A DNA stretch of 64,000 bases from Candidatus Poribacteria bacterium (GCA_965222225.1 CBDCTK010000002.1:5376001-5440000), one strand, 5' to 3'; numbered from the stretch's first letter, positions 1,229 through 61,648 are shown. Numbers and translations are program-made. Notes: generated by a model from the sequence alone, not told the origin.

Positions 1229-1470
1229 AGAGCCTGATTGAAAAGTACAGGAAAAGTACAGTTTGTAGGGTGCGATCAAAGGAATGAATAATGACTGCGA
1301 TAGAGATCCCCTGCGCACCAGCCTCTAAAAGCCCCAGAGTGGGATCAAGGGAGCGAATAGCCACTGCGATAGAGATTCTACAGGTATGTAGCAGCCAACA
1401 ATGAAAACATGAAAAAACTTTCTACAAATGACCAAAAATGGCTTTGCCGCCGATTATTCAAACAGGTTCT
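1229..1470. mobile_element. MITE-like element with ~14-bp terminal inverted repeats, carrying REP palindromes and two hairpin-unit insertions (1274-1310, 1343-1379)
   Basis: AGAGCCTGATTGAA ... TTCAAACAGGTTCT (12/14 inverted match); near-identical relative at 61401-61648. Confidence 0.7.
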
Positions 1471-1535
1471 GAGCGGAAGCCGTCATGTTGTATATGGATA
1501 TCGATTCCTAATCCGTATATCGCGGGAGATTACGT

Positions 1536-2555
1536 ATGGATGTGAAGTATACTGTTCTGATGACCGATTACGCATGGCCCTCGGTTGAACCCGAGCGCAA
1601 GGTACTGTCTGAGATCGGAGCAGAACTAATCGTCGCTGAAACGGGGGCTGAAGATGAATTGGTAAGCTTGGCGCCGCAATCCGATGGCATCCTTACATGC
1701 TGGGAGCAGACGACTACCGCCGTCATCAGAGCGGCTGAGCGTTGTCAAGTCATAGGACGTTGCGGCATCGGGCTTGATAACATTGATGTGAATACTGCAA
1801 CCGAGCTTGGAATTGTTGTCACCAATGTGCCGGCATATTGCATTGACGAAGTCTCCGATCACGCGATGGCTCTGTTATTGGCGTGTGCTCGGAAGATTTC
1901 CATCTTTGACCGGGAAGCCAAACGCGGCAGTTGGGTACGAGATGTAGGTCCCCCGGTGTACCGAATTCGCGGCAAAACGCTGGGCATTATGGGGTTCGGC
2001 AAGATTGGGAAAGCCGTAGTGCCGAAAGCGAAAGCCTTCGGACTTGATGTCATTGTCTACTCGCCGAGCCTATCCTCACAGGTTGCGGAATCGTGCGGTG
2101 TCCAAAAAGTTGAACTCCCTGAGTTGCTGATGCAATCCGACTTCATCACGATTCACGCGCCGCTGAATTCTAGGACTGAAAACCTCCTAGGGAAAGAGGA
2201 ATTTCGTCAGATGAAAGAGACTGCTTATGTCATCAACACGTCGCGAGGCGGGATCATTGACACGGCCGCGCTTTGTACGGCCGTACAAAAGGGGTGGATC
2301 GCTGGAGCAGGTTTGGATGTACTGGCTGAAGAACCTCCGGCGCCGGATGAACCGCTGATTGAATTGGATAATATTGTTATTACACCACACGCCGCCTTCG
2401 CATCTGAAGAATCAACATACGACCTTGAGGTGAGTGCTGCACGTGCCGTCGCGGATGTATTGAGTGGGAAAATGCCGGGGTCCGTCGTTAACCGAGAAGT
2501 TTTGGAAAGCCCGCTGCTTCGCGCAAAAGCGCTTGGCGATCAACCGAGTGGATAG
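1536..2555 (+). CDS. D-isomer-specific 2-hydroxyacid dehydrogenase (SerA/CtBP-like)
   Basis: GIGLDNID, GIMGFGKIG Rossmann motif, INTSRGG, GLDV..EP, ITPHAA; last codons and stop lie inside a hairpin unit. Confidence 0.92.
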   Translation: MDVKYTVLMTDYAWPSVEPERKVLSEIGAELIVAETGAEDELVSLAPQSDGILTCWEQTTTAVIRAAERCQVIGRCGIGLDNIDVNTATELGIVVTNVPAYCIDEVSDHAMALLLACARKISIFDREAKRGSWVRDVGPPVYRIRGKTLGIMGFGKIGKAVVPKAKAFGLDVIVYSPSLSSQVAESCGVQKVELPELLMQSDFITIHAPLNSRTENLLGKEEFRQMKETAYVINTSRGGIIDTAALCTAVQKGWIAGAGLDVLAEEPPAPDEPLIELDNIVITPHAAFASEESTYDLEVSAARAVADVLSGKMPGSVVNREVLESPLLRAKALGDQPSG

Positions 2556-2683
2556 CGAGGGCGATAGAGATTCCCTCAAGCAAGCGAGTGATTAGCGATC
2601 AGCCGAACGAATAGTGAGGGATCAAGTGACTGAACAAGGGGCGCGATAGAGTTCCCATAGTAAATCCCGTGCGATAGAAATTC
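2538..2683 (+). repeat. nested array of GATCAA-hairpin-GCGATAG units
   Basis: One complete unit followed by three units nested inside each other. Confidence 0.9.
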
Positions 2684-2811
2684 ACTAGCCACTGCCCACT
2701 GCTTTAAGTTGCCATGCTTTCCAGAGTCGAAAACGCGTAATCCGATACCGTATATTTTTAGCGAATAAACCACTAAGTCGAGGTGCAAGGAGAGGTGCAA
2801 GGAGTTGTTAC

Positions 2812-4011
2812 ATGCAGGCATTACCTGATGCAACAGGGCACTTCGGGGAGTTCGGTGGCAGATATGTTCCTGAGACATTGATGCCCGCCCTGTTGGAACT
2901 TGAAGAAGCCTACCGGTCCCTGAGTGCCGATCCGGAGTTTCAAAAAGAATTTGAATACTATCTGCGAGAATACGTCGGTAGACCCAATCCGCTCTATTAC
3001 GCCGAGCGGTTGACCGAGGAACTCGGCGGGGCAAAAATCTACCTCAAACGAGAAGATCTCAACCATACCGGCGCGCACAAAATCAACAATACGATTGGAC
3101 AAATTCTGCTCGCGCGTCGGATGGGCAAAAAACGAATAATAGCGGAGACCGGAGCGGGACAACACGGCGTCGCGACTGCCACAGTGACAGCGAAATTCAA
3201 TATGGAATGCGAAGTTTACATGGGCGAGGAGGATATAGAACGCCAGGCGCTCAATGTGTTTCGCATGCGCCTCATGGGTGCAAAAGTAACTCCTGTAAAT
3301 TCCGGTTCTCGAACCCTAAAGGACGCGATTAACGCCTCATTCCGCGACTGGGTGACAAACGTCCGAACGACCTATCTCCTCATCGGCTCCGTCGTGGGAG
3401 CGCACCCCTACCCGATGATTGTTCGGGAGTTCCAATCCGTAATCGGGGTTGAAACCAGGACACAAATACTTGAGAAAGAGGGACGGTTACCGGATTGTGT
3501 CGTCGCAAGCGTGGGCGGCGGCAGTAACTCGATCGGTATGTTCTATCCGTTCTACGAAGATGAGAGCGTGGAAATGATAGGCGTCGAAGCCGCCGGTGAG
3601 AGCATACTGAGCGGCAGGCATGCCGCCTCATTGAGCGAAGGCAGCATCGGGGTGTTCCACGGTGCAAAATGTTATCTGTTACAGGAAGACGATGGACAGA
3701 TAACCCCGGCGCATTCGATTTCCGCGGGACTTGACTATCCGGGAGTTGGTCCTGAACATAGCTATTACAAGGCGAGTGGAAGGGCTAATTATGTTTCAAT
3801 TACTGATGATGAAGCCGTAGACGGATTCAAATTGTTGTCGGAATTGGAAGGCATTATCCCGGCGCTTGAGGCCGCGCATGCAATTGCACATGTTCAAAAA
3901 ATCGCTCCGATGATGGATCGAGATGCCATTATTGTAGTCTGCCTCTCCGGGCGTGGTGACAAAGACGTTGGAGGGGAAATGGGCTCCGCGCCGCTTGCTC
4001 TCAGTCATTAA
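2812..4011 (+). CDS. trpB: tryptophan synthase beta chain
   Basis: [24 protein letters not shown] (PLP lysine), [33 protein letters not shown]. Confidence 0.98.
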
Positions 4012-4119
4012 AACCTGCCAAGAACCATCAGCCGTGTAGGAGCGACCTCCTGGTCGCGATTCCTTGCGGAATCGACAATCGTCAAATCACCGATTTCCCT
4101 TCTTCTCTTTCTTTGTAGG

Positions 4120-4191
4120 GATCAACCGACCGAATAGGATCAAGCGAGCGATTAGCGAGTGCGATAGAGATCTTAAGGCGATAGAAATCCC
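4120..4191 (+). repeat. two nested hairpin units in a GTAG REP; segment duplicated at 20781-20852
   Basis: 71/72 nt identical to 20781-20852. Confidence 0.9.
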
Positions 4192-10573: not shown

Positions 10574-10774
10574 GGACCTGTTTGAAGATCTAGTTGGAGT
10601 AGGGTGCGCACTGTGTTCAAGCGAGTGGATAACGAGTGCGACGGAGATTTCTATTCAATCATCAAATCGAAAATGGGATCTTGACAGGCGATAGCAGGTG
10701 ACAACAGAAACATGAAAAAAGCCCCTCCTCAAATGACCAAAAATGGCCTTGTCACCTATTATTCAAACATACTC
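10574..10774. mobile_element. MITE-like element (same family as 1229-1470) with a REP and a degenerate hairpin unit (10615-10651)
   Basis: GGACCTGTTTGAA ... TTCAAACATACTC; shared 3' segment AAATGACCAAAAATGGC...TTATTCAAAC. Confidence 0.6.
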
Positions 10775-11426: not shown

Positions 11427-11463
11427 GAGATCTCTATCGCACTCCTTATTCAGTCGCTTGATC
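11427..11463 (-). repeat. single hairpin unit, the only one on the minus strand
   Basis: Reverse complement reads GTAGCAACC-GATCAA-GC GA CT GAATA AG GA GT-GCGATAG-AGATCTC. Confidence 0.9.
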
Positions 11464-11663: not shown

Positions 11664-11719
11664 GATCAAACGAGTGAACAACGATCAACTGAGTGATTAA
11701 CGAAGGCGATAGAGATCCC
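11664..11719 (+). repeat. 5' unit fragment plus a complete hairpin unit in a GTAG REP
   Basis: GTAGGCGGG-GATCAA...AGATCCC-CTTGCCCCGCC. Confidence 0.88.
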
Positions 11720-13980: not shown

Positions 13981-14174
13981 AGCCTTTAAAAGCGACGGTG
14001 TGCGATCAACCGAGCGAATAACAAGCACGACAGTGTTTCCATAGAGATTCCACCAGCCTTTGAAAGCGCGAGCGGTGCGATTGGTATATCACATGTATTG
14101 CAGGCGACAACCAAAGCGTGAAAAGACCTCTCCCAAAATGCCCAAAAAATAGCTTTGCCGCCCATTACACACAG

Positions 14175-15367: not shown

Positions 15368-15404
15368 GATCAACTGAGCGGATAGCGAAGGCGATAGAGA
15401 TCTT
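15368..15404 (+). repeat. single hairpin unit
   Basis: GATCAA-CT GA GC GGATA GC GA AG-GCGATAG-AGATCTT after AAGCCCCAGAGTGG. Confidence 0.9.
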
Positions 15405-15733: not shown

Positions 15734-15840
15734 GATCAACTGACTGGATAAGGAAGGATCAAGGGAATGGATAATGACCGATCAAGCGAATGAATAATGA
15801 GCGCGATAGCAAATCCCAATAGAACTCCCATAGAGATCCC
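15734..15840 (+). repeat. three nested hairpin units in the loop of REP GGTTGGG/CCCAACC
   Basis: Three 5' halves followed by three 3' tails. Confidence 0.92.
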
Positions 15841-20780: not shown

Positions 20781-20852
20781 GATCAACCGACCGAATAGGA
20801 TCACGCGAGCGATTAGCGAGTGCGATAGAGATCTTAAGGCGATAGAAATCCC
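20781..20852 (+). repeat. two nested hairpin units, duplicate of 4120-4191
   Basis: One substitution relative to 4120-4191; flanks also homologous. Confidence 0.9.
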
Positions 20853-22393: not shown

Positions 22394-22488
22394 GATCAAC
22401 CGAGTGAACAGCGAGGGCGATAGTAAATCCCAAAGTGAGTGATCAAGCGACTGGATAAGGAGCGCGATAGAACTCCCATAGAGATCTT
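22394..22488 (+). repeat. array of hairpin units at the decarboxylase breakpoint
   Basis: Two complete units plus fragments; further single units at 22684-22720 and 22784-22820. Confidence 0.88.
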
Positions 22489-22888
22489 CTTGCCCCGCAT
22501 CGGAAAGACTTGATTGATGATGTTAATGCACTAATGCACTGTAAATAAAGGGAGATGGTATTACTTATCTTCGCCCGTTACTCCCTATGAAGTGAAGATA
22601 TCCAATGTGCCCATTCACCTGCTCACGAACACGGCAAGGGAATCATATCCATCGGCCCTCTTCGACAGATAGAGTTTCGTGGCGATCAAAGGAATGAATA
22701 GTGACTGCGATAGAGTTCCTTCCGCTCTCCCATCCATCCGTCTTTCCCTTTCTCCGCTTTAATAGCCTGCAGGTTGGGAGAACAATCAACGGAATGGATA
22801 ATGACCACGATAGCGCTCCCACCATCCTTTTGAAAGCACTGGCGGCACCAAAACCAACTAAGTGAAATGGCAAAACAATAGCTACATC

Positions 22889-25244: not shown

Positions 25245-25281
25245 GATCAAAGGAATGGACAATGACTGCGATAGAGATCCC
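25245..25281 (+). repeat. single hairpin unit in REP GTAGGGTGGG[CA]CCGCCCACC
   Basis: Uninterrupted analogue GTAGAGTGGGCACCGCCCACC at 20667. Confidence 0.9.
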
Positions 25282-26214: not shown

Positions 26215-26275
26215 GATCAAACGAGTGGACAACGTGAGCGATAGCAGATCCCATAGTGAGGGCGATAGAAATCCC
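26215..26275 (+). repeat. hairpin unit plus 3' fragment in a GTAG REP
   Basis: GTAGGAGC-GATCAA...AAATCCC-ACTCCGAATCGCGAC; uninterrupted analogue at 32843. Confidence 0.85.
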
Positions 26276-28475: not shown

Positions 28476-28611
28476 GATCGGGCGAGTGAATAACGATCAA
28501 CTGAGATCAAACGAGTGAATAATGTGCGCGATAGCGATCTTTGATAGCGAAGGCGATAGTAAATCCCATAGTGAACGCGATAGCAAATCCCGTGCGATAG
28601 AGATTCCATAG
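28476..28611 (+). repeat. nested array of hairpin units
   Basis: 5' halves and 3' halves that re-pair across the inner unit. Confidence 0.88.
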
Positions 28612-31411: not shown

Positions 31412-31448
31412 GATCAAGCGAACGAATAGTGAGTGCGATAGAGGTCCT
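31412..31448 (+). repeat. single hairpin unit in the stem of REP GCG[AG]CT-cc-AGCTCGC
   Basis: Palindrome symmetry indicates AG is missing at the insertion site. Confidence 0.9.
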
Positions 31449-43735: not shown

Positions 43736-43928
43736 CATCAAACGACCGATCAAAGGAACGGATAGTGACTGCGATAGAGTTCCCATAGAGATTCCTGATA
43801 GGAAGGATCAAGTGACCGAATAGGATCAACCGAGTGGCTAGCGAGGACGATAGAGTTCCTCATGCGATAGGGATCCTAAGGCGATAGTAAATCCCATAGG
43901 GAGTGCGATAGAACTTCCATAGAAATTC
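43736..43928 (+). repeat. large nested array of hairpin units
   Basis: Four GATCAA-type starts and several 3' tails; halves of the first unit are separated by ~148 nt; another pair of units at 44006-44065. Confidence 0.92.
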
Positions 43929-44199
43929 GACCAGCCTTTGAAAGCGCCAGCGGTGCGAAAGGTGTATAGTAACGCGGATTCACTACACACCAAAGCCCCA
44001 GCGGAGATCAAGCGAATGGATAATGAGCAATCAAACGAGCGAACAGCGAGTGCGATAGAGATCGCATTCAAACAATATCTCCGACCGACATTATCCTCAA
44101 AATTGATTATATAATCACCAACAATTCCCCAATTTCAGGTTGACGCATAACAGAAAATTTGGTATGATAAACCCCGATGGTGTCCTCAATTTCGTCTGG

Positions 44200-47567: not shown

Positions 47568-47725
47568 GCGATTAAGCGAGCGAATAGATCAAGTGACCGG
47601 ATAGGGAACGCGATAGCAATCCCCTGAAGCGACTGAATAAGTTGTAGGGTGGGATCAAAGGAGTGAATAACGATCAAGCGAATGAATAATGAGTGCGATA
47701 GTGAATCCCGTACGATAGAGGTCCC
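47562..47725 (+). repeat. two arrays of hairpin units (47562-47623 and 47653-47725)
   Basis: First overlaps the oxidoreductase stop codon; second is nested in GTAGGGTGG...CTGCCCACC. Confidence 0.85.
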
Positions 47726-47898
47726 CCTGCCCACCATCTCTTGGGGTATCCCAATGCGATAGAGTCTCCGCTCATTCCTGCTCGGCTCGGATTGCCAAAT
47801 CCAAGCCTTGGCCGATTGCGTCATCAGTTCGTAGGTTGGGTTGAACGGAAACCCAACACCTCATCTGAATCACGGAACTAACAAGGAACATTTGACAA

Positions 47899-48285: not shown

Positions 48286-48589
48286 CGCGCACAATAGCCT
48301 TCGTAGGGTTGTCTACCTTGCCCGTGATGCCCCCAAACCGTGACGAGTGAAATGTTTCTAAGTTAATCCATCAATACGCCTCTTACAAGGCACATCCGAT
48401 GAAACGGTATAGTGGTAAATTGTCGTTAAACTCTACATAAGCGCCAAAGGATATGGACGGAACTCCATATCCGCTTGGGTGCTGCTGGATAGGCGCTGCC
48501 GGAAGCTCCGACTAGTGTGGGCAGACAGAAGGGAATCGGTCATGTTAGCTGAATTCAAGTTCGGAGATTTGCAAGGCAGCAACGAAGCC

Positions 48590-48920
48590 CATGACTGAGA
48601 CGGCGTGTTCATCGTCCGCGACGTGCTAGACCTTGATCTCGTCGGTGAATTGAACCGGCACATTGACTGGCTGATTGAGCGAAACCCCGGCGATATCTCG
48701 GTGCATCATCCGCACACGGTCCATGGCTCCGATGCCAACATCAGTGACCGCTGGCGTTGCGGCGTTCCATTCAATGTATGCCTGCGACAACTCGCGTAAC
48801 AAAACCTTGGTCCTGTACATTCCTGTTTCGCGGCGAAGCCGCTGAAGACGTCATTAACGATTATAAGCGTAAACCAACATACATTGCGGGAGAACGCATG
48901 CCGTTCAAATGTTGTGAATC
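48590..48920 (+). pseudogene. PhyH-family dioxygenase remnant with internal deletion
   Basis: GVFIVRDVLD...HIDWL fused directly to GDISVHHP.TVHGS.AN.SDRWR.G. Confidence 0.6.
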
Positions 48921-48965
48921 ATGGAAGTGAATCAAAGCAACAAACACTGAAAGAAGATTGCGCTC

Positions 48966-49802: not shown

Positions 49803-49805
49803 TTC

Positions 49806-50957: not shown

Positions 50958-51007
50958 TCAATACGCTAGGACTTACGCGGAAACAGGAGGTCGCGACGGT
51001 AGGCGGA

Positions 51008-51148
51008 GATCAACTGAGCGATCAGGCGACTGGATAAGGAGCGCGATAGAGTTCCTATAGCGAAGGATCAAGGTAACGGATAGTGACCGATCAACTGAAT
51101 GGACAGTGAAGGCGATAGAAAGTCTTGATAGCAATCCCATAGAGATCC
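51008..51148 (+). repeat. four nested hairpin units
   Basis: CT GA GC G (51014-51020) re-pairs with TA GC GA AG (51058-51065) across an inserted unit. Confidence 0.92.
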
Positions 51149-51443
51149 GTTAATCCGCGATTCAGACAATTACTAAAATTCACAATCCCCATACCTTATT
51201 CTCTTAGCGAATAAACCACTAATACACTAATTGATAAATTTCCACCCCATGAGAAGATTAAGGGTGGAGCTAATCGATAATTCAAGCAAAATTGGCGTCA
51301 TAAACCTGATTGCGTTTCACTGCAATTATTCCATAACCACATGGGGCACCGCTAGTACCGAACCGGTCCTACACTCCTATCGCCCGATTCTTTGGAGAGA
51401 TTTGATTTTGAACACTATGTATCGATTGAGGACAAATCCTTTT

Positions 51444-52685: not shown

Positions 52686-52702
52686 CTCTTCTTGTAGGGT
52701 GG

Positions 52703-52895
52703 GATCAAGCGAGTGAATAGCGATCAAGGGAACGAACAGTGATCGATCAACTGAATGGACAGTGAAGGCGATAGAAATTCCCTCAAGCGAACGATCAACT
52801 GAGATCAAACGAGCGAATAGCGATTGACCGAGTGGACAACGAGGGACAACTGAGTGAATAACGAAGGCGATAGCAATCCCGTGCGATAGAGCTCC
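52703..52895 (+). repeat. large nested array of hairpin units
   Basis: About eight GATCAA-type starts after GTAGGGTGG. Confidence 0.9.
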
Positions 52896-53038
52896 ATCAG
52901 CGATTATTAAGTCGTCGTTTTTCCTTCTTATTGCCCACCATCCCCAAACACGTAGTCAACTGATTATACAATATATTGTACGATATGTGACAGTATTACA
53001 CTATATATTGATAATTATTTTATTTCCAAATAAGCTGT

Positions 53039-54172
53039 ATGAACGATTCAATCATCAATCGAATTGAATGGACGCGCCTGACCGGAACGAGACCGCGAAA
53101 CGCCGGCTGCAACTCACGTCTGGGAGGGCATGGAATACACGTTAGACCGGGCATTGCTCGCGTTACTGCCGAAAATGGAGCAACTGGCTTTGGTTGGTCG
53201 TCGTTGTCCAAAGAATATGCGGAGTCGCTGATCGGCTTTAAGCTTTGTGAGATCTTTAATCTACAATGCGGGGTTGACGCACGGTTTCGCGCGCTTGAAT
53301 ATCCGCTCTGGGACCTGGCGGGACAGCTTGCCGGCAAACCCGTGTACGCCCTCTTGGGAGGCCAACCCGACAACGAAGGAATCTTTCGTGTGCCTTGCTA
53401 CGATACGTCATTGTACATTGACGACCTTCACCTTGAAGACGACAATGAAGCGGCGGCACTAATTGCGTCGGAAGCCTTGGAAGGAGTAGCGCGGGGGCAC
53501 ACGGCATTCAAGATTAAGGTCGGACGTGGTGCCATGCACATGCCCCTTGAGAAAGGGATGGCGAGAGATATCCGCGTCATATACGCTGTTCGCGAAGCTG
53601 TGGGCACAGACGCGACCATCCTGATAGATGCCAACAACGGATATAATTTGAGTTTGACGAAACGCGTATTAGGTGAGACCGCGGATGCTAACGTGTACTG
53701 GATGGAGGAAGCCTTCCATGAAGATCCGAAATTCTACGCGAGCCTGCGCGAATGGCTAGACGCGGAAGGGTTGGAGACACGCATCGCTGATGGAGAGGGT
53801 GATGCATCGCCTAGCTTGGTTAATTGGGCGCGAGAGGGCTTGATTGACATCATTCAATACGACATTTTCAATCCCGGCTTCACCCACTGGCTGCAACTTG
53901 GTCCTCAACTTGACGAATGGGAGATTGGCACCGCGCCCCACCATTACGGTGGTCATTACGGCAACTACGCTGCAGCTCACTTGGCAGCCAAGGTCCGGCG
54001 CTTTGAATTCGTCGAATGGGATGAGGCGTTAACCCCCGGTTTGGATGCCTCTGACTACGGAGTCTCTGACGGACACGTCAATGTTCCCGGCACCCCCGGA
54101 TTCGGTCTTAGGTTAGATGAAGACGTTTTTACCAAATCTGTTGCCACCGACGGCTTTGTAATTAGCCGATAA
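53039..54172 (+). CDS. mandelate racemase/muconate-lactonising enzyme family protein
   Basis: LWDLAG...GKPVYALLGG, FKIKVG, IDANN, WMEE, ADGE, PGFGL. Confidence 0.92.
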   Translation: MNDSIINRIEWTRLTGTRPRNAGCNSRLGGHGIHVRPGIARVTAENGATGFGWSSLSKEYAESLIGFKLCEIFNLQCGVDARFRALEYPLWDLAGQLAGKPVYALLGGQPDNEGIFRVPCYDTSLYIDDLHLEDDNEAAALIASEALEGVARGHTAFKIKVGRGAMHMPLEKGMARDIRVIYAVREAVGTDATILIDANNGYNLSLTKRVLGETADANVYWMEEAFHEDPKFYASLREWLDAEGLETRIADGEGDASPSLVNWAREGLIDIIQYDIFNPGFTHWLQLGPQLDEWEIGTAPHHYGGHYGNYAAAHLAAKVRRFEFVEWDEALTPGLDASDYGVSDGHVNVPGTPGFGLRLDEDVFTKSVATDGFVISR

Positions 54173-54301
54173 ATCCGGATGTTTCTCCTTAGAACTTGTT
54201 TGAAGATTCATTTTTGGTAGCGCCATTCGCCCTGAAACCGACTGTTTGTCAGCACTCTTGTAGGGTGCGCACTGCGCACTAGCCTTTGGAAGCCGGCGTC
54301 A

Positions 54302-54371
54302 GATCAAACGAGATCAAGTGAGCGAACAGCGAGCGATCAAGCGACTGAACAAGGAGTGCGATAGAAATCCC
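54302..54371 (+). repeat. two 5' fragments plus a complete hairpin unit
   Basis: GATCAA ACGA GATCAA ... GATCAA ... GCGATAG AAATCCC. Confidence 0.88.
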
Positions 54372-54473
54372 TCTCGATCATCAAATCAAGATGAAATCTC
54401 CTAAGGGGTTGGGCTTTCATCGCACTATTGATGCTTCCCCTGTATTCCTAACCACTAACCACTGTCTTACCTG

Positions 54474-54899
54474 TTATTCCAAGCCGAGATGATTCATGTA
54501 TCCTAGCATCTTCGTTTCGACCTGCTGAGCAATCGGTTCCAACGTTTCAGAATCGACCGTGGTCTGCTGAATCCTCTCATCAATATTCGTCTGTAGACAG
54601 TAGTTCAGATTCTCTCGCATATCGTGCATCGCCTGCCCAATGTGATCCCTGACAGATCCGGGAAGGTAATTCCACTGCCGCGCTTTGGTTTGCCTTAAGT
54701 TAATATGGCAATGTCCTTTTCCCTTTTTATCGTTTTCTCCCCCGAAACAGTCGAGTCGAAAAACCTCCTGATCGTAGGCATAGATGGATATTGCGGGGCC
54801 ATAACCAGCCCGATCATCCCGCCAGTAAACTTCTAGACGGACGTTGTCCTGTATCTGATATTCAACCAGATCGTGTCTGCCCTGTTGTTCCGGAGCCAT
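54474..54899 (-). CDS. hypothetical protein
   Basis: aaaggaga RBS before ATG 54899; globular composition (VFRLDCFG, GHCH). Confidence 0.7.
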   Translation of the reverse strand: MAPEQQGRHDLVEYQIQDNVRLEVYWRDDRAGYGPAISIYAYDQEVFRLDCFGGENDKKGKGHCHINLRQTKARQWNYLPGSVRDHIGQAMHDMRENLNYCLQTNIDERIQQTTVDSETLEPIAQQVETKMLGYMNHLGLE

Positions 54900-55013
54900 C
54901 TTTAATCTCCTTTCAAATGTACAGTATACAAAGCACTGCACGAGATTCCAAGAATCCCAATGCATTAACTCTGGGAGTATGTCAACTCGCTGCAACAACT
55001 CCAGTGTACCACG

Positions 55014-55745
55014 TTACAGGAACACGTTCACCCCCATATCAATATATCTATCGCGATCTTCCGGTGCGACGCCGCGAAGGCAGATTGAAACGCCGCTACC
55101 CTTAAGCTGATCGCCAACGTGGCGCACAATCTCGTCTGATAAGAGGTGATGAGCAGATGAAGGTAGACTCAACGGATGGTGCGGGTAAGTGCCAAGGTTG
55201 ATAGTCAAATCCGCAGGACCGAAAGAAATACAGTCAACCCCCGCTTTGGCGAATTTCCTTGCATTCGTGACTGCATTGATGGACTCCACCTGTAACAAGA
55301 GTATACAAGTTTCATTCCACCAATTGGCATACTCGACACGGTCTCGGTCCGGCGTGAAGCCAAATCCGTAGGCGGGTCCCCAACTGCGCTTGCCGACTGG
55401 TGGGTAATACAGGGCATCCAGCGCTTCATCGACCATAGCTTCCGTTTCCACTTGTGGCACCTCAAAGCCCGTGGGGCCCAGATCCGCCCAGTTTCCAATC
55501 TGGTAGGCTAGACGTGTGTTCTTTATCCGAAACAGAACCGGGACGTTGTATTCCTCGGCAAGGTTACAAAAGGGAATGAGTCGTTCCTCCTTAAACGGAG
55601 CGTGTTGGCTATCGCACTGCAACAGATCGAACCCGCCTGCTTCTAACGTAGCCCTAATGTCGGCGGGGTCTGATGCTAGTCCCGTTTTCCCGCAGATAAT
55701 AACCTCCCCATCGTGCATCCGCTGTTTCACATTCTTTTCTGCCAT
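55014..55745 (-). CDS. HpcH/HpaI aldolase family protein
   Basis: GFD....DSQHAP, VPQVET, YYPPVGKRSWG, LQVES, FGPADL. Confidence 0.9.
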   Translation of the reverse strand: MAEKNVKQRMHDGEVIICGKTGLASDPADIRATLEAGGFDLLQCDSQHAPFKEERLIPFCNLAEEYNVPVLFRIKNTRLAYQIGNWADLGPTGFEVPQVETEAMVDEALDALYYPPVGKRSWGPAYGFGFTPDRDRVEYANWWNETCILLLQVESINAVTNARKFAKAGVDCISFGPADLTINLGTYPHHPLSLPSSAHHLLSDEIVRHVGDQLKGSGVSICLRGVAPEDRDRYIDMGVNVFL

Positions 55746-56430
55746 TTAATGCATCCTTTCAGTTTGAGCCTATACGCTGACCTCAAGAAGTAGACCACTG
55801 TCGCAGTCTCATTCTACCAAAATTCGGGACGATTGTCCACGATTTTTCCGAACCCTGTCACGCGCTGACACTAGAAGACGCATTCTGTTCATTGATGCAT
55901 GCTCAGACAGGCATATCGAGCCATTGATTAAGTCAGCCAAATGAAGTAAAATCAGGTTTACACATTTCGGTTGGTAGTAGCATCTTCTTTAGCCCCTTGT
56001 AGGAACAATTTCCCGATCGCGACTCCTGAAGGGTGAGATTTTCAAAAACGACCAAAATGACGCTGTCGCCTGTTGTGTAAACTCGCTCTAAACGATGTCT
56101 TCCCAAACATAAATCTAAAAACTCAATTGTTCTGAATGGCAACCACGGTTTCATACCAACATTTCATACCAACGTCTCATTAGCTTTGATGTCAAAACAG
56201 CGTATAATCCAGTCATAGAAAGGGTTTACGTGCTTTTCTATCGCTATTGAAAATCCCCATTTTGGTATGAAAAGTATGAAAAGTATGAAATTTTCCGGGA
56301 CGGCTAAACAGCGTTTTTCGAGTAGTACCTAGGGATTTCAAACAGGTTCTAAATGTCGTCGTTATAGAGATGCGGATTTTGAGATATTACGAAGAAAGTG
56401 TAAGATCGACTTTGTACATTTTTAGGGTGG

Positions 56431-56691
56431 AATCAAGCGAACGGATAGTGAGTGCGATAGGAATCCCCTGTCCACCATTTCTTGTAGGGTGTGCATTGCG
56501 ATCAAGTGACCGAATAGGGAACGCGATAGAGATCTTACCAGCCTCTAAAAGCCCCAGAGGGGATCAAACGAACGGATAGTGAGTGTGATAGCGATTCCAC
56601 AGGTATATAGCAGGCAACTACAAAAACATGAAAACACCCCTTTCTCAAATTACTGGAAATAGATTTGCCGCCTATTATTCAAACAGGTTCT
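56431..56691 (+). mobile_element. three separate hairpin units (56431, 56500, 56562) in adjacent palindromes, ending in the MITE right end
   Basis: Units interrupt GGGTGG/TCCACC, GTAGGGTGTGCATTGCG and AAGCCCCAGAGGG; TTCAAACAGGTTCT at 56678-56691. Confidence 0.8.
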
Positions 56692-56703
56692 GAAGGAGAT
56701 AAT

Positions 56704-57771
56704 ATGGACGAAAAATCAATTGAACTACTTAAAGAATTGACCCAAGCCGCCGGAATCCCCGGACATGAAACCGAAGTACAAGCGATTTTCCAATCCCGGC
56801 TGGCTAATGTTGGCGCTATCGACAGAGATCGGTTGGGAAGCATTATCTGTACCAAACGCGGGGATGCCGACAAGCCTCGCATTCTTCTCGATTCTCATCT
56901 TGATGAGGTCGGTTTTATCGTGCAACGCGTGACAGATTCCGGGTATGTGAAATTCCTTCCGGTAGGCGGATGGTGGGCGCATACTTTACTTGCCCAACGG
57001 GTGAATATCTTGACCAAACACGGAAAAGTTCCCGGGATCATCGGCTCCATCCCGCCTCACCTCCTGGGTGCCGGTTCGCGTGAGAAGGTCATGGAAATTC
57101 AGAACCTCTTTATTGATATCGGGGCAGAAAGTGACAATCAGGCTTCCGAAGAATTTGGCGTAGTGCCCGGATGTCCAATCGTTCCGTACGGCCCCTTTAT
57201 GCCGATGAAGAATCCGAAACTATTTTCGGCAAAAGCGTTTGATAACCGCGTCGGGGTGGCGCTTGTGATTCAAGCTCTGCTAAAACTCGGTAAACACCCG
57301 AACACGGTAATTGGCGCCGGCAGCGCACAAGAAGAGGTGGGGTTGCGCGGAGCACGCACAGTGGCGCAGATAGTCCAACCCGATGTCGCCATAGTCTTGG
57401 AAGGCCCCCCGGCGGACGATACCCCCGGTACGGATAGTGACGCCGTGCAGGGAAAACTTGGAGCCGGCGTACAGATTCGGCTGTACGACCCGACGATGAT
57501 TCCTAACCCCCGGCTATGTGAGTTCGTCATTGAGACCGCGAAGTCGCATCAAATTCCCCATCAACTTGCCGTGCGTCAATCCGGTGGAACTGATGCGGGC
57601 TCGATTCACCAAGACGGACGTGGCGTATTGTCAATTGTATTGGGCGTACCCGCACGTTATGTTCATAGCCACGTGTCAATCATCAATAGCGACGACTATT
57701 CTGCGGCGCTGGATTTACTTCTGCATTTGGTTCCCAAACTTGACGAAAATACCGTGGCTGCACTCATATAA
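56704..57771 (+). CDS. M42 family metallopeptidase
   Basis: GIPGHE, SHLDEVG, KAFDNR, QEEVGLRGA, GGTDAG, RYVHS; aaggag RBS before ATG 56704. Confidence 0.95.
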   Translation: MDEKSIELLKELTQAAGIPGHETEVQAIFQSRLANVGAIDRDRLGSIICTKRGDADKPRILLDSHLDEVGFIVQRVTDSGYVKFLPVGGWWAHTLLAQRVNILTKHGKVPGIIGSIPPHLLGAGSREKVMEIQNLFIDIGAESDNQASEEFGVVPGCPIVPYGPFMPMKNPKLFSAKAFDNRVGVALVIQALLKLGKHPNTVIGAGSAQEEVGLRGARTVAQIVQPDVAIVLEGPPADDTPGTDSDAVQGKLGAGVQIRLYDPTMIPNPRLCEFVIETAKSHQIPHQLAVRQSGGTDAGSIHQDGRGVLSIVLGVPARYVHSHVSIINSDDYSAALDLLLHLVPKLDENTVAALI

Positions 57772-58095
57772 AGATCGATGCAGAGAAACCGAGTTTTTTC
57801 CCGAAAACTCGGTTTTTGCAATAGTTACCCTTGTAAGGTGTAATCGGTGATTGTCAGATCGCCGATTCCCGCCTCTTATTGCACGCTAGCCTTTCGCTAT
57901 TAACCTCTTGCCCGACGCACATTGTCGACCGTTGCGATCTGCCATCCTGTCCATTAAGGTTTTCTTCCTCTGATTTATCCTCTCATACATTGCTCATTAT
58001 TTCCTTGTATCACCAAATCTAACCACCATTCCGTCCTGCCTCCATTCCAACCTTCCTTCTCGCCGCTCTTCCACCCTTCCAATCTTCCTGTCACC

Positions 58096-59985
58096 TCATT
58101 CCACGACCATCAGCCTCCGCGTGTGTCTTTCCCCTGATGCCTCCAACACATAAAAATAAACGCCACTCGACACTGGTTCATTGTTCAGATTACGTCCGTT
58201 CCAATACACCGCATCGGATTTCGCCGAATAATTCCCAACCGGAAGTTCCCCCTTTGCAATACTATGAATCGAACTTCCTCGCAAATCGTAAATGCGAAGC
58301 GTCACCCGACTCGGTTGTATCAGTCTGAATGGGATCCAAGTCTCCGCGTTGAACGGGTTTGGATAGTTTTGCAATAAGACGCCGCGTTTTAAGCCGCCTA
58401 CTGTAACGGGCAACGAGTTGGGAGGGAGTTTAACACCGCTAGGTTCAGGCATACCGGTTTCCCCAAACTGCGCCAATAATGCCTCAAAAGCGGTGCGGCT
58501 ACGGATAATGCCGTATCCAACCGCGTTATCTGGTGCGCGCGATTGAGAGGCAGTCGATCGAACCGCGTTGGCGATATCCCGAGGTGTAGCGAGAGGGAAC
58601 GCCTGCATCAATAGCGCAACCACTCCCGTGCCTAGGGGCGCGGATGCCGAGGTTCCACGGTGGGTATGGGCGAAACGGTTTCGCGTCTGCGGATTGATGC
58701 CTGTTACGCCGAGCCCCATAGCGACGAGGTCAGGCTTTATCCGTCCGTCAAATGTTGGTCCACGTGAACTGAATCGCAAATTCCTACCATGACGGTCAAC
58801 CGATCCGATAGCAAGCACATCGAACCCGTCTGCCGGTACACTAATGCGTCCGCCCAAACCCAAATCTCCTAAGGGCTGATCCCCCAAATTTCCTGTTGCA
58901 ACAATTACGGATATTCCCTTCTCTACCGCGAGATTAGCGGCAATCGTTAGTTTTGAGGTTTTCCCGTCAAGGTCTTCAAAGCGGTACCATTTCGAGTAAC
59001 CGAGCGAGCTGCTAATGATTTCAGCGCCCATCTGTTCTGCCCATTCCAGCCCCTCTATCCACCAGTCTTCTTCGATTAAGTGTTCAAATTCCTGCCCGTT
59101 TTGGGAGACCTTTTCTGTCTTGGCAAGTAGATAGCTGGCACGGTATGCAACCCCCATCAAAGTTCCCGGTGCGTTTGCCGCAAGTATGCCAAGAACAACC
59201 GAACCGTGGTCATCTTCCCCGGGATCGTCTTGCCCAATTTCATCAGCCGGATTGTTGTCATTGTTGACAAAATCGTACTGAGCAAGAACGTCTACGGGCT
59301 GAAGTGCCGTGTGGTCTAAGCTGAATCCCGTGTCTAGCAGACCAATTACGATTCCGTCTCCGGAGAATCCCGACTCGTGCAGAAAGTTGGCTTGAATCTG
59401 TTCAATCTGCGTTCGCGAGTTTCCGTAGTTCAAGGGTGCTAATCCGGGTGGGGCTTCTTGAGACGAGGAATACCATAATGAGTCCGAGCGTTGAGATGTG
59501 CTTCTATAGATCTCAATCGGATCAATCGCGAGGACAAAGGGCAGACAGGCTATCTTGGAAATCTCAGTGGGCGTTGTCTCAATCGAAATTGCGTTGAGCC
59601 ATCGACTCTTGGCGCGCAATCTTCCGCCTATTTTAAGCACAGCATCAGTGTACGGAGTTGAGACAGGGAGATCGGTAATGTCGGGAAAGGGAAGGCGTGT
59701 CCGGCGAAGACGACGGCGTTTGGAGCGCGTAGACATTTGGGTTTCGTACGCTTCCAGTGCCGTTTGCAACTGATTTTTCGTCGCAATTCCTTTGTCTTTG
59801 AAAAGTACCCACACCTTCAGTTTTTCGTGGATATCAGCACCAAGAAGCCGACTAGAGATTTTGGCGAGCCCTACAGGTGAACCATCGGCGGGATGGGCAG
59901 GTAAATCGAAACAAAGCGTTGCTAAGAAGCAGAGCAGCAACGCGATAAATGCTTTCACGGGAGCAACATATTGTGTCAGCCACAT
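58096..59985 (-). CDS. secreted S8 subtilisin-like peptidase with C-terminal T9SS/FlgD-like domain
   Basis: LDTG, HGS, GTSASAP catalytic triad; LLQNYPNPFNAETWIPF, WNGRN, SSGVYFY. Confidence 0.93.
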   Translation of the reverse strand: MWLTQYVAPVKAFIALLLCFLATLCFDLPAHPADGSPVGLAKISSRLLGADIHEKLKVWVLFKDKGIATKNQLQTALEAYETQMSTRSKRRRLRRTRLPFPDITDLPVSTPYTDAVLKIGGRLRAKSRWLNAISIETTPTEISKIACLPFVLAIDPIEIYRSTSQRSDSLWYSSSQEAPPGLAPLNYGNSRTQIEQIQANFLHESGFSGDGIVIGLLDTGFSLDHTALQPVDVLAQYDFVNNDNNPADEIGQDDPGEDDHGSVVLGILAANAPGTLMGVAYRASYLLAKTEKVSQNGQEFEHLIEEDWWIEGLEWAEQMGAEIISSSLGYSKWYRFEDLDGKTSKLTIAANLAVEKGISVIVATGNLGDQPLGDLGLGGRISVPADGFDVLAIGSVDRHGRNLRFSSRGPTFDGRIKPDLVAMGLGVTGINPQTRNRFAHTHRGTSASAPLGTGVVALLMQAFPLATPRDIANAVRSTASQSRAPDNAVGYGIIRSRTAFEALLAQFGETGMPEPSGVKLPPNSLPVTVGGLKRGVLLQNYPNPFNAETWIPFRLIQPSRVTLRIYDLRGSSIHSIAKGELPVGNYSAKSDAVYWNGRNLNNEPVSSGVYFYVLEASGERHTRRLMVVE

Positions 59986-60065
59986 TTCCCATTTCCTTCA
60001 TTGATCGATGCACAAGCGCACTCGGAATATATCAAAGCAGTTATCCCAGTGTCAAGATTTTTCCA

Positions 60066-60172
60066 GATCAATCAACCGGATAGGGAACGCGATAGAAATC
60101 TCGGCGCGATGAATCTGATGAATCTCTAGTGCGATAGGGGGGTTGTAGCAACTGCGATAGAAATTCTCATAG
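60066..60172 (+). repeat. degenerate hairpin-unit fragments
   Basis: GATCAATCAACCGGATAGGGAAC GCGATAG AAATCTC plus two further GCGATAG tails. Confidence 0.7.
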
Positions 60173-60362
60173 ACACCTCTGCAACCGAAAATTAGATGCG
60201 AGTGTCCGGTTCCCTCCACAGATTGCTGTTGACCGTGAGACGAAAATCGGATAAAATGTTGCCGTCCGAGGTAAATGACAAAGCCCACCGAACGATCGTT
60301 TCAGACTAGGTCGATTGGCCCCTCCTTAGACTATAATGTCATCAAGAGAGGAGAGTAGAGAG

Positions 60363-61344
60363 ATGAGATTTGCCATACATCTCGGTTATCGCTATACACG
60401 GGAGGTAATGAGACTCGTAAAACAGATAGGTTGTACCGATGTAATGGGTCACGGCCCGCCTACTCCCTCTATCGGCATAGAAGACACGGGTTCCGAAGTA
60501 TGGACGGTGGAAGACCTAATCAAGATGAAACGCCAAGTTGAAGCCCATGACTTAAGATTGGAAGTTCTTGAGCATTGCCCGCCAATTAACAAGATAATGC
60601 TGAACCTAGAGGGTCGGGAAGAGCAACTGGAGATTTTCTGAAAATCGGTTGAAAATGTTGCTGAAGCCGGCATACACACCATCAACGCATCAAGTGCGGA
60701 ATGGGTCAATTGGGGATTGGTGGCTACGACCTCGTAAGATGAGATTAGAGGCGGTGCGACATCACGAGGCTTTGACTACGACCTGATAAAGGACATTCCG
60801 CAGTCCGAGCACGGCGAGGTGGGCGAAGAACGCACCCGGGGAAAATCTCTCATACTTGGTCAAGGGAGTTGTGCCTACCCTAGAGGCTACGGGGGTGCGA
60901 TTGGCATTTCATCCGTGTGACCCGCCTATTTCACCAACACAGGGATTCGCTAGACCACTGAGGAGTACCGAGACATTTGACCGACTTCTCAATATCGTGC
61001 CGACGACGGACAAGATTGGGCTCAATTTCTGCCAGGGGTGATTTGCTGAAATGGGGGAGGACATACCGACTGCTATCTGTCACTTTGTCGAGTGTGTCAA
61101 AATCTTTTTTGCCCACTTCAGGGATGTGGAAGGCGCGGTCCCTAGATATACCGAAGTCATGCATGATGATGGACCAACAGACATGTTCAAGACGATGCAA
61201 ACCTACTACGACGTGGGCTTCGAAGCACCTATGCGCCCCGATCACGGTGCCAATTTGGAAGAAGCAGAAGGAGGCACAATGGCGAAGATTTTTGCCATTG
61301 GATACATGCGCGGGCCTGCCGAAATTGTGGAGAAAACCCGCTGA
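60363..61344 (+). pseudogene. uxuA: mannonate dehydratase-like pseudogene
   Basis: RGGA, GVRLAFHPCDPP, GLNFCQG, IFFAHFRDV, MRPDH, FAIGYMRG; stops at 60639 and 61039 plus frameshifts. Confidence 0.8.
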
Positions 61345-61400
61345 GATGGAATGCGTGCGCATTACGAAAGAGAGGATTGTTCATTATTTTGTTACCTTTA

Positions 61401-61648
61401 ACCGTGTTTGAAAAGTACAGTTTGTAGGGTGCGCACTGCGCACCAGCTTCTAAAAGCCCCAGATGGGCGGAAGGTGTATAGAAACACCAAAACCCCGTGC
61501 ACCTCTAAGCCCCAGCGTGGGATCAAGGAAGCGAATAGCGACTGCGATAGAGATCCTACAGGTATGTAGCAGCCAACAATGAAAACATGAAAAAACTTTC
61601 TACAAATGACCAAAAATGGCTTTGCCACCGATTATTCAATCAGGCTCT
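61401..61648. mobile_element. MITE-like element, sister of 1229-1470, with an intact REP (61424-61444) and one hairpin unit (61521-61557)
   Basis: Right end TTCAATCAGGCTCT is the exact reverse complement of 1229-1242; TTAACCGTGTTTG repeated at 61398 and 61648. Confidence 0.7.

What the first reader, a model, noticed from the sequence alone, without database searches (positions are those of the whole stretch)
1274..61557. A ~37-nt dispersed element with a hypervariable but structurally conserved hairpin (candidate undescribed mini mobile element)
Seen: about 30 loci, nearly all intergenic (1274, 1343, 2538, 4120, 10615, 11427-, 11664, 14004, 15368, 15734, 20781, 22394, 22684, 22784, 25245, 26215, 28476, 31412, 43736, 44006, 47562, 47653, 51008, 52703, 54302, 56431, 56500, 56562, 60066, 61521), share GATCAA + 17 nt + GCGATAG + a 7-9 nt tail (AGATCCC, AAATCCC, AGATCTT, AGTTCCT and others). 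The 17-mer reads ab-GA-cd-GRAYA-d'c'-GA-b'a'. Outer pairs seen: AG/CT, CC/GG, CT/AG, GG/CC, GC/GC, AC/GT, GT/AC, and wobble GC/GT, GT/GC, GG/CT. Inner pairs seen: AT/AT, GC/GC, CT/AG, GT/AC, AC/GT, CC/GG, and wobble GT/GC, AT/GT. Examples: AG GA AT GAATA AT GA CT (1280), CT GA GC GGATA GC GA AG (15374), GT GA CC GGATA GG GA AC (47593). Established: tandem GA/GA forms sheared G.A pairs, and G-N3-A loops close with a G.A pair in ssDNA and RNA. Inference: the fold works only on the written strand, because the complement would give TC/TC and A.C mismatches. Selection therefore acts on a single-stranded structure, probably read by a trans-acting enzyme. No such enzyme is encoded in this window.
Basis: partly seen in the sequence, partly recalled or inferred. 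Interest (0 to 1): 0.93.

Follow-up and report, generated by a model that had tools for sequence, protein, structure and literature searches.

The report
Tiny self-nesting hairpin repeat in Poribacteria
A 35-37 base repeat with a variable but always foldable hairpin is scattered about a thousand times through this sponge-symbiont genome and behaves like a very small mobile DNA element related in kind to bacterial REP repeats, although the enzyme that moves it was not found.

Summary
GATCAA-N17-GCGATAG occurs 25 times in the window (0 expected), 34 good copies with mismatches, about 1100 in the 5.7-Mb Candidatus Poribacteria genome. The four base pairs of the 17-mer covary strongly (95% paired against 59% shuffled). 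The tandem GA/GA and G-R-A-Y-A loop are nearly invariant. G.T wobbles outnumber A.C 308 to 27, so only the written strand folds.

It is mobile: filled and empty sites exist among paralogous host repeats and between species, with a net insert of about 35 nt. It lands in other REP-like hairpins and in itself, giving stacks.

Orientation ignores gene direction but follows a replication-like skew: the folding strand lies mostly on the G/T-poor strand.

It is abundant only in two genera of 31 scanned. No Rfam family matches.

Best reading: a non-autonomous REP-like ssDNA element moved in trans, probably by a Y1 HUH (RAYT/IS200-type) transposase. This step is inferred. The one such gene flanked by copies has a different cognate repeat, and no enzyme shares the element's distribution. 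Free-DNA energy models do not predict the fold.

Closest known: REP/RAYT systems, and the small dispersed repeats of Nostoc. Verdict: new variant of a known kind.

The parts
1274..1310 (+). Full copy (N17 AGGAATGAATAATGACT) inside a GTAG-type host hairpin (TAGGGTGC|...|CCTGCGCACC).
1343..1379 (+). Full copy inserted behind a GCCCC-type (REP-P-like) hairpin (CCCAGAGTGG|GATCAA).
2538..2574 (+). Full copy.
2620..2656 (+).
4120..4190 (+). Nested pair. The outer copy starts at 4120. The inner full copy at 4138-4174 sits in the outer loop, and the outer 3' box and tail follow.
10614..10650 (+). Degenerate copy (TGTTCAA...GCGACGG) in a GTAGGGTGCGCACTG host hairpin.
11427..11463 (-). The only minus-strand full copy in the window.
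11683..11719 (+). Full copy, preceded by part of another copy.
14004..14040 (+). Copy with 2 mismatches in the 3' box.
15368..15404 (+). Full copy behind CCCAGAGTGG.
15734..15840 (+). Stack of three heads (GATCAA+N17), one GCGATAG box and three tails (CAAATCCC, ATAGAACTCCC, ATAGAGATCCC).
20799..20835 (+). Copy with 1 mismatch, nested like the one at 4138.
22394..22477 (+). Two adjacent copies (22394, 22441).
22684..22720 (+). Full copy.
22784..22820 (+). Copy with 2 mismatches.
25245..25281 (+). Full copy in a GTAGGGTGG host hairpin.
26215..26251 (+). Full copy in a GTAGGAGC (host B) hairpin.
28505..28541 (+). Full copy behind a partial head.
31412..31448 (+). Full copy in host B (GTAGGAGC|...|CTCTCC).
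43736..44065 (+). Three copies (43748 nested, 43824, 44029).
47587..47708 (+). Two copies (47587, 47672), both nested in partial copies.
51020..51125 (+). Two copies (51020, 51089).
52745..52880 (+). Two copies (52745, 52844) with a partial copy between them.
54312..54371 (+). Stacked head (54312) and full copy (54335).
56431..56598 (+). Three copies (56431, 56500, 56562).
60066..60102 (+). Full copy with a broken outer stem.
61521..61557 (+). Full copy behind CCCAGCGTGG, inside a ~245-nt composite repeat.

Best explanation
The unit is a non-autonomous, very small mobile DNA element of the REP kind.

Anatomy:
- a head, GATCAA
- a 17-nt hairpin of two 2-bp stems of free sequence around an invariant tandem GA/GA, capped by G-R-A-Y-A
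- a 3' box, GCGATAG
- a tail, A-R-A-T-C-C(C)

Shown:
- It adds about 35 nt net at a G^ position. Targets are other REP-like hairpins (GTAGGGTGCG^CACTGCG^CACC, GTAGGAGCG(A)^TCTCC, GCCCC-NNN-GGGG^CGACAGGT) and its own loop and 3' box (GCG^ATAG).
- Insertion is always in one orientation relative to the host hairpin. This yields nested copies and stacks of heads and tails.
- Only the written strand can form the fold. The stems drift freely as long as they pair, so selection reads a single-stranded structure together with the fixed flanks.
- Orientation follows a replication-like strand asymmetry, not transcription.

Inferred:
- The structure is read on ssDNA by a trans-acting Y1 HUH transposase of the RAYT/IS200 type, which cuts and rejoins it as TnpA-REP does with REPs.
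- The stem diversity reflects neutral drift of a large replicating population under a purely structural constraint.
- Which protein does this is not settled.
For: Abundance:
- 749 exact and 1102 loose copies in the genome, 0 in the reversed-genome control.

Covariation and strand specificity:
- Each of the four pairs is 95-97% paired, against about 50-79% expected from column composition.
- In the tool test, 94.9% paired against 59.3% shuffled, 0 of 500 shuffles as high, slid controls at most 55.9%.
- 285 fully paired variants among 780 copies; 40 of 48 outer x inner stem combinations occur.
- 267 of 710 two-stem-position differences between variants are partner positions that stay paired; 14% would be expected.
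- 308 G.T against 27 A.C/C.A.

Mobility:
- The empty form of host A occurs 25-40 times, and filled forms at the same site carry different 17-mers.
- Host B: 95 empty, 34 filled.
- An orthologous site is filled in G006 and empty in G002 and G004.
- The syntenic 19-kb region holds 3-22 copies in nine congeners, at differing places and with differing 17-mers.
- Nesting and stacking are seen directly.

DNA-level rather than transcript-level behaviour:
- Flanking genes are co-oriented 282, opposite 222, divergent 155, convergent 152, about in proportion to intergenic length.
- Orientation against the gene-corrected skew r gives Spearman -0.55 to -0.67. r co-varies with T-A skew, +0.39 to +0.61.
- 68% of copies lie on the G-poor strand.
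- Orientation relative to the GTAG arm of host repeats is 106 against 2, and host A repeats show the same bias, 70%.

HUH enzymes are present:
- Five Y1_Tnp matches in the genome.
- One is an intact 157-aa HUH+Y protein like ISDra2 TnpA, flanked by inverted copies.

Fit with published REP biology (passages read in PMC8266576, PMC3333891 and PMC6006769):
- E. coli REPs are read strand-specifically as folded ssDNA.
- They need a conserved 2x2 mismatch in mid-stem.
- They carry stem positions that vary but keep complementarity.
- Variable cleavage sites are proposed to produce variant insertions.
Against: No cognate enzyme was found.
- The 157-aa gene and its orthologues in three genera are flanked at fixed distances by a different repeat, GCCCC-NNN-GGGGC-GACAKGT. 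That repeat, not this element, shares the gene's distribution. The copies next to the gene are therefore explained by insertion into that repeat.
- A second RAYT-like gene is intact and free of copies in G001 and G005, and truncated between copies in G000.
- The 247-aa and 160-aa Y1 proteins do not follow the element either.
- Two genomes with about 150 copies each (G021, G027) have no match to the 157-aa protein at E 1e-10.

Other points against:
- The unit has no 5' GTAG of its own.
- Neighbouring copies are mostly direct (288 against 86), not inverted doublets.
- The folding strand lies mostly on the G/T-poor strand. That is the opposite of what insertion of the active strand into the lagging-strand template, as described for IS608/ISDra2, would give (polarity rests on the usual G/T-rich leading-strand rule, since gene-strand bias does not correlate with r).
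- Insert ends vary (34-37 nt) with one-base ambiguities, unlike the exact ends of IS200/IS605.
- With DNA parameters the fold costs +2.15 kcal/mol and is the minimum-energy structure in 0 of 263 variants. With RNA parameters it is -0.75 and the minimum in 151 of 263.
Confidence: 0.5

Rival explanations
1. The element works or moves at the RNA level. It would be a structured RNA hairpin (a six-layer helix with tandem sheared G.A and a GNR(N)A-like pentaloop) that acts in transcripts or is copied back into DNA through an RNA intermediate. To my recollection, this is what was proposed for the Nostoc small dispersed repeats.
For: - With RNA parameters the fold is favourable on the written strand (-0.75 kcal/mol) and unfavourable on the complement (+3.07). 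It is the minimum-energy structure in 151 of 263 variants, while DNA parameters never give it.
- G.T wobble tolerance fits RNA as well as DNA.
- Contigs from RNA libraries of three studies run into copies. DNA carry-over cannot be excluded.
Against: - Orientation is nearly independent of the direction of flanking genes: 282 co-oriented against 222 opposite in tandem gene pairs. It depends on a replication-like skew instead.
- No Rfam family matches, even at E up to 10.
- There is only one weak reverse-transcriptase match in the genome, a 670-aa protein that lies beside neither copies nor a retron-like or intron-like context.
Confidence: 0.15
2. The element spreads without a dedicated nuclease. 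Single-stranded copies of the written strand anneal by short homology (GCGATC..., ...GATCC) to the lagging-strand template at the fork and are built into the nascent lagging strand, with the hairpin looped out. Gene conversion between host repeats spreads it further.
For: - The written strand is enriched on the G/T-poor strand, that is, the nascent lagging-strand sequence.
- Insert ends vary by 1-3 nt, with microhomology at the junctions.
- Many insertions lie in repeated hosts that share the flanks GAGCGATC and CTCTCC with donor copies.
Against: - No source of free ssDNA copies is identified.
- The same host site carries many different 17-mers.
- The element also enters hosts that share only a G with its flanks.
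- The strict conservation of head, 3' box, GA/GA and loop is more than annealing needs.
Confidence: 0.15
3. The copies are host-useful protein-binding or chromosome-structuring sites, as REPs are for gyrase, IHF and Pol I in E. coli. Selection would keep them at each locus, and mobility would be only their origin.
For: - The replication-oriented strand bias is conserved in the syntenic region of all nine congeners. Shares on the window's + strand: 22 of 22, 9 of 9, 13 of 15, 8 of 8, 13 of 14, 8 of 8, 5 of 5, 6 of 7, 1 of 3.
- Copies persist in two genera.
- The conserved core could be a binding site.
Against: - Number, position and 17-mer of the copies differ between species in the same intergenic gaps.
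- Copies nest in each other and disrupt a gene.
- 162 of the 176 genomes of the phylum that were scanned do without them: 161 at background and G066 with 24 hits on few contigs.
Confidence: 0.1

Closest known systems
REP/BIME repeats with REP-associated tyrosine transposases (RAYT, TnpA-REP; Y1 HUH)
   Same: - Hundreds of short extragenic imperfect palindromes.
- Read as a folded single strand in a strand-specific way.
- A conserved internal mismatch in mid-stem (A12A13-G26C27 in E. coli, tandem GA/GA here).
- Stem positions that vary but stay complementary.
- Variable junctions.
- Y1 HUH genes in the same genome, one of them flanked by inverted copies.

What I saw of the papers: passages of PMC3333891, PMC8266576 and PMC6006769.
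   Different: - No 5' GT[AG]G in the unit.
- Stems of only 2+2 bp with near-combinatorial variation.
- Mostly direct, stacked and nested copies instead of inverted doublets.
- Inserts into other REP families.
- No cognate transposase gene was identified.
Small dispersed repeats (SDR1-8, especially SDR5) of Nostoc punctiforme and relatives (Elhai et al. 2008, Genome Res 18:1484)
   Same: - Repeats of a few tens of nt, dispersed, nested in copies of themselves, embedded in other short repeats, with a fold kept by compensatory changes (recalled from the abstract; the paper is not held).
- SDR5 inserts between the third and fourth base of GCGATCGC, that is GCG^AT (passage of PMC4390886). This element also enters at GCG^ (GCG^ATAG, GCG^CAC, GAGCG^ATC).
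   Different: - Different phylum and different sequence. The unit is not in Nostoc plasmid pNPUN01: 1 loose match against 4 in the control.
- The interrupted HIP1 sites there carry a different GC-rich insert.
- SDRs were reported only in Nostocaceae (passage of PMC5861425).
- This unit is longer (about 35 nt net) and has the GA/GA motif.
- HIP1 is not enriched here: 120 copies in the whole genome.
IS200/IS605 insertion sequences and their miniature derivatives
   Same: - Hairpin ends read on one strand as ssDNA.
- Movement tied to replication.
- The nearest solved relatives of the 157-aa protein are ISDra2 TnpA entries, E about 1e-5.
   Different: - A single hairpin of 17 nt rather than two subterminal ones.
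- Variable ends.
- The strand bias has the opposite sign to insertion into the lagging-strand template.
Integron attC sites
   Same: From my own recollection, not checked in any paper here:
- Sites of free sequence but conserved fold.
- Read on one strand as ssDNA thanks to non-paired bases.
- In chromosomal arrays the folding strand is said to lie on the leading-strand template.
   Different: - No integrase or cassette context.
- Much shorter.
- Dispersed rather than in one array.

Membership tests
REP / RAYT (REPtron) system | Short imperfect palindrome in high copy number, largely between genes. | tested here: met
   749 exact and 1102 loose copies. 811 of 1099 lie outside crude ORF calls that cover 84% of the contig.
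REP / RAYT (REPtron) system | Conserved GT[AG]G tetranucleotide 0-2 nt 5' of the hairpin foot. | tested here: not met
   The 5' flank of the hairpin is GATCAA in all copies. A TAG 6-8 nt upstream, in about half of the copies, belongs to the host repeat.
REP / RAYT (REPtron) system | A single cognate Y1 HUH gene flanked by the repeat and co-distributed with it. | tested here: not met
   The 157-aa gene is flanked by inverted copies. Its orthologues are flanked by GCCCC-NNN-GGGGC repeats, and these follow its distribution. Other Y1 genes do not follow the element.
REP / RAYT (REPtron) system | Strand-specific single-stranded fold with a required unpaired zone in the stem. | tested here: met
   Covariation and wobble asymmetry; invariant GA/GA. 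That an enzyme requires it is not testable here.
REP / RAYT (REPtron) system | Organisation as inverted doublets (BIME/REPIN). | tested here: not met
   Neighbours closer than 400 nt: 288 in the same orientation, 86 opposite.
IS200/IS605-type element | Active strand lies in the lagging-strand template (G/T-rich strand). | tested here: not met
   68% of copies have the folding strand on the G-poor strand; Spearman -0.55 to -0.67 against gene-corrected skew. Polarity is assumed from the usual rule.
Nostoc small dispersed repeats (SDR) | Same sequence family as SDR4/5/6. | tested here: inconclusive
   Not found in pNPUN01, and interrupted HIP1 sites there carry another insert. The SDR consensus sequences could not be read because the paper is not held.
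Nostoc small dispersed repeats (SDR) | Nested self-insertion and a fold kept by compensatory change. | tested here: met
Any Rfam RNA family | Match to a curated covariance model. | tested here: not met
   0 matches at gathering score. At E up to 10 there are only two unrelated weak matches elsewhere in the window.
CRISPR array | Identical repeats at a regular period with unique spacers. | tested here: not met
   Spacing between neighbours is broad (31 to over 390 nt) without one period, and repeats differ in the hairpin.

The most novel reading that the evidence does not exclude
This would be the second, independent case, outside cyanobacteria, of an Elhai-type 'smallest mobile element'. It is a roughly 35-nt unit defined by a non-canonical hairpin (tandem sheared G.A plus a G.A-closed loop). 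It parasitises other REP hairpins and itself at G^ sites. It would be moved by a route that is not the known RAYT/IS200 one: either an unrecognised enzyme, or incorporation of the folded single strand into the nascent lagging strand. That would explain the strand bias of opposite sign and the ragged ends.
Probability: 0.3. Interest if true: 0.8.

Novelty: new variant of a known kind. Interest (0 to 1): 0.6.

Why it matters
- It gives a large natural data set, about 1100 copies per genome in fourteen genomes of two genera, in which only structure is conserved. In effect it is a natural selection experiment on what a single-strand-reading machinery accepts: Y-GA-R context, Y..R loop closure, G-R-A-Y-A.
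- It shows REP-type repeats serving as landing pads for a second, smaller repeat. That matters for how intergenic space is built in sponge symbionts.
- Its replication-linked orientation, shared by the host repeats, can serve as a marker of replication direction and of rearrangements in these uncultured genomes.
- If the mobilising activity is new, it could make the old question of how the Nostoc small dispersed repeats move testable in a second system.
- Practically, these copies break short-read assemblies of Poribacteria.

Tried and rejected
- Rfam at gathering score and at E up to 10: nothing on the copies.
- Paper searches: 'Poribacteria-1' gave 0 papers. 'Poribacteria' with 'repetitive extragenic palindromic' gave 1 unrelated review. 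I did not find this repeat in print with these two searches. Supplements are closed and may hold REP lists.
- Elhai 2008 is not held, either by DOI or by PMC id.
- CRISPR-like geometry: rejected.
- The 247-aa RAYT-like protein as the enzyme: found only in G000 and G005, with a fragment in G009.
- The 160-aa frameshifted RAYT-like gene: patchy, not specific to the two genera.
- The truncated RAYT-like gene between inverted copies: its intact orthologues carry no copies.
- Reverse transcriptase: one weak match of another kind.
- Genes flanked by direct copies: IS1595 and DDE transposases, a terminase-like protein and a 379-aa protein with no Pfam match. All are multi-copy sequences that merely lie between copies.
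- A first scan for the GCCCC repeat used a loop one base too long and is void; it was repeated correctly.
- The 24 hits in one genome of another genus (G066) sit on a few contigs and may be mis-binned.
- RNA libraries: all runs laid were contigs, so they show neither strand, ends nor level. Parts without cover and breaks at copies say nothing about transcription.
- A GATC-to-GATC excision model (31 nt) does not fit the 34-37-nt inserts.

Full report
**What is there**

The pattern GATCAA-N17-GCGATAG occurs 25 times in the window, 24 of them on the + strand. None occurs in 100 dinucleotide shuffles. With up to two mismatches there are 38 matches against a shuffled mean of 2.03. I kept 34 of these and dropped four by eye because their 17-mer lacks the GA frame (alignment A1).

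The window lies in a 5.7-Mb, 50% G+C genome of two contigs. A 1511-aa protein of the window is 87-89% identical to proteins of Candidatus Poribacteria MAGs.

Genome-wide there are 749 exact copies. There are 1102 copies with up to three substitutions in the 25 fixed positions, and none in the reversed genome.

Conservation runs from about -4 to +37: (G-A-G-C/G) GATCAA, the 17-mer, GCGATAG, then A-R-A-T-C-C-C.

**The hairpin**

Numbering is from the G of GATCAA, counted as position 0.

- The pairs 6-22, 7-21, 10-18 and 11-17 are standard pairs in 95-97% of 749 copies. Column composition alone would give about 50-79%.
- GA at 8-9 and 19-20, G12 and A16 are nearly invariant.
- On the 34 window copies the tool gives 94.9% paired cells against 59.3% in shuffles. 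None of 500 shuffles reaches this, all four pairs show changes on both sides, and slid partners give at most 55.9%.
- There are 285 fully paired 17-mers among 780 copies. 40 of 48 outer-by-inner stem combinations occur, with only moderate association (Cramer V 0.38).
- Among variant pairs that differ at two stem positions, 267 of 710 differ at the two partners of one pair and stay paired; 14% would be expected.
- G.T wobbles total 308, against 27 A.C or C.A among the listed pair types. So the written strand is the one that folds.
- The allowed letters fit what is known of sheared G.A motifs, from my own knowledge: mostly pyrimidine-GA-purine on both arms, and a pyrimidine..purine pair closing the G-R-A-Y-A loop.

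Against this, nearest-neighbour models do not predict the fold for free DNA. It costs +2.15 kcal/mol and is never the minimum-energy structure in 263 variants. With RNA parameters it is -0.75 on the written strand and +3.07 on the complement, and it is the minimum in 151 of 263. Either non-canonical stacking not covered by the DNA parameters, or a protein, or RNA must supply the stability.

**It is mobile**

I joined 12 nt on either side of trial deletions and looked for the joined 24-mer elsewhere in the genome. This gave clear empty sites.

- In the GTAG-type hairpin GTAGGGTGCGCACTGCGCACCAGCC, the empty form occurs 25-40 times. Filled copies carry a 34-35-nt insert, ATCAA-N17-GCGATAGAGATC(C), after either GCG, each with a different 17-mer.
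- A second host, GTAGGAGCGATCTCC..., has 95 empty and 34 filled copies.
- A third host is the GCCCC-NNN-GGGGC-GACAGGT repeat, entered after GGGG.
- The element also enters its own loop (GA^ATAG) and its own 3' box (GCG^ATAG).
- Nested entry at the 3' box explains the stacks. The window stretch 15734-15840 has three heads, one box and three tails. 215 of 926 copies carry extra ATAG-plus-tail modules.
- The ends are not exact: inserts measure 34-37 nt, with one-base ambiguities.

Between species, the 19-kb stretch 43000-62000 is syntenic in all nine congeners. It holds 3-22 copies at differing places with differing 17-mers. One orthologous host hairpin is filled in G006 and empty in G002 and G004.

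**Orientation**

- Copies do not follow the genes beside them: 282 co-oriented, 222 opposite, 155 in divergent and 152 in convergent gaps, roughly as intergenic length predicts.
- They do follow strand composition. Per 100 kb the orientation bias correlates with GC skew at -0.55.
- It correlates at -0.55 to -0.67 with the skew component that is independent of gene direction. That component co-varies with T-A skew, as replication skews do.
- 68% of copies have the folding strand on the G-poor strand.
- The host repeats show the same tendency; host A is at 70%. The element sits in one orientation relative to their GTAG arm, 106 against 2.
- In the syntenic region of the congeners nearly all copies point the same way as in the window.
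- By the usual rule the G/T-poor strand is the leading-strand template. I could not confirm polarity from gene-strand bias, which does not correlate with that component.

**Distribution**

- Among 41 relatives the full pattern is present in hundreds of copies in all ten genomes of the genus and in all four of a genus of another family. It occurs twice in the sister genus and not at all in 26 others.
- A looser hairpin pattern over 176 genomes and 31 genera of the phylum gives the same picture.
- One other genome has 24 hits on a few contigs, which may be mis-binned.

**The enzyme question**

The genome has five Y1_Tnp matches.

- One is an intact 157-aa protein with HUH and Y motifs. It scores above NCBI's IS200 cut-off and below the RAYT cut-off. 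Its nearest solved relatives are ISDra2 TnpA entries. It lies between inverted copies of the element.
- However, its orthologues in three genera are flanked at fixed distances by the GCCCC repeat. That repeat follows the gene's distribution across genera, while the element does not. The copies beside the gene are insertions into its own repeat.
- A truncated RAYT-like gene between inverted copies is intact and copy-free at the same locus in two congeners.
- Two further Y1 proteins are not specific to the carrier genera.
- There is one weak reverse-transcriptase match of another kind.

So the trans-acting enzyme is not identified.

**Comparison**

Passages I read say the following about E. coli REPs:

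- They are processed strand-specifically as folded ssDNA.
- They need a conserved 2x2 mismatch in mid-stem.
- They have stem positions that vary yet stay complementary.
- Use of different cleavage sites is proposed to create variants (PMC8266576, PMC3333891, PMC6006769).

The element shares these traits. It lacks the GTAG foot, the inverted-doublet organisation and a cognate gene.

It also parallels the small dispersed repeats of Nostoc.

- SDR5 enters GCGATCGC between the third and fourth base (passage of PMC4390886). This is the GCG^AT junction seen here.
- The sequence is different, and the unit is absent from Nostoc plasmid pNPUN01.
- What I say of nesting and compensatory change in SDRs is recalled from the abstract of Elhai 2008, which is not held.

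**Other evidence**

The stretch is held in contigs of 20 runs from 8 studies, six of them RNA libraries. Contigs break at the copies. Transcription cannot be judged from contigs.

**Verdict**

This is a real, abundant, mobile, self-nesting mini-element whose single-stranded fold is under selection. It is REP-like in kind and new in its form and host. The mobilising activity is open.

I put 0.5 on a Y1 HUH route. The remainder is split between an RNA route, fork-annealing of ssDNA, and a mainly host-serving role.

Noticed in passing
window 1215-1470 and 61400-61650; own genome, many loci: A composite dispersed repeat of about 245 nt (AGAGCCTGTTTGAAAAGTACAGTTTGTAGGGTGCGCACTGCGCACC...AAGCCCCAGAGTGG...ACAGGTATGTAGCAGCCAACAATGAAAACATG...). 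It has dozens of copies at 76-97% identity in all ten genomes of the genus. It carries two REP-type hairpins that serve as landing sites for the element.
   Followed up: partly
own genome and relatives (for example L055-L057): A second repeat family, GCCCC-NNN-GGGGC-GACAKGT, has 43-281 copies in four genera. It flanks the 157-aa IS200-like Y1 gene at fixed distances, which makes a classical REPtron in Poribacteria.
   Followed up: yes
own genome, for example GTAGGAGCGATCTCCGAATCGCGAC (95 copies) and GTAGGGTGCGCACTGCGCACC (155 with up to 2 mismatches): Canonical GTAG-type REP families that also show the replication-linked orientation bias. Their cognate RAYT was not sought.
   Followed up: partly
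L044 / L156 (own genome 3560268-3560543, minus strand): A RAYT-like gene is truncated to its C-terminal 92 residues between two inverted copies of the element. It is intact (192-201 aa) between the same neighbour genes in two congeners.
   Followed up: yes
L149 (own genome 4499560-4501572, minus strand): A 670-aa protein with a weak reverse-transcriptase match (27.5 bits). It is the only one in the genome. The kind was not determined.
   Followed up: no
L155 (own genome about 1315165-1316304, minus strand) and three other loci: A multi-copy 379-aa protein with no Pfam match, lying between direct copies of the element.
   Followed up: no
own genome, whole large contig: The gene-corrected GC skew changes sign many times along the chromosome instead of forming two replichores. 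This suggests many inversions or assembly joins. The element's orientation tracks these blocks.
   Followed up: partly
own genome 1578411-1578560: A tandem array with a 38-nt period, made of TCTTGTAG + GATCAA-N17-GCGATAG units with different 17-mers in successive units.
   Followed up: no
window 32914-33010 (-) and 37208-37364 (+): Weak sub-threshold Rfam matches (SNORD14 at 29.8 bits, NiCo riboswitch at 21.3 bits), probably chance.
   Followed up: no
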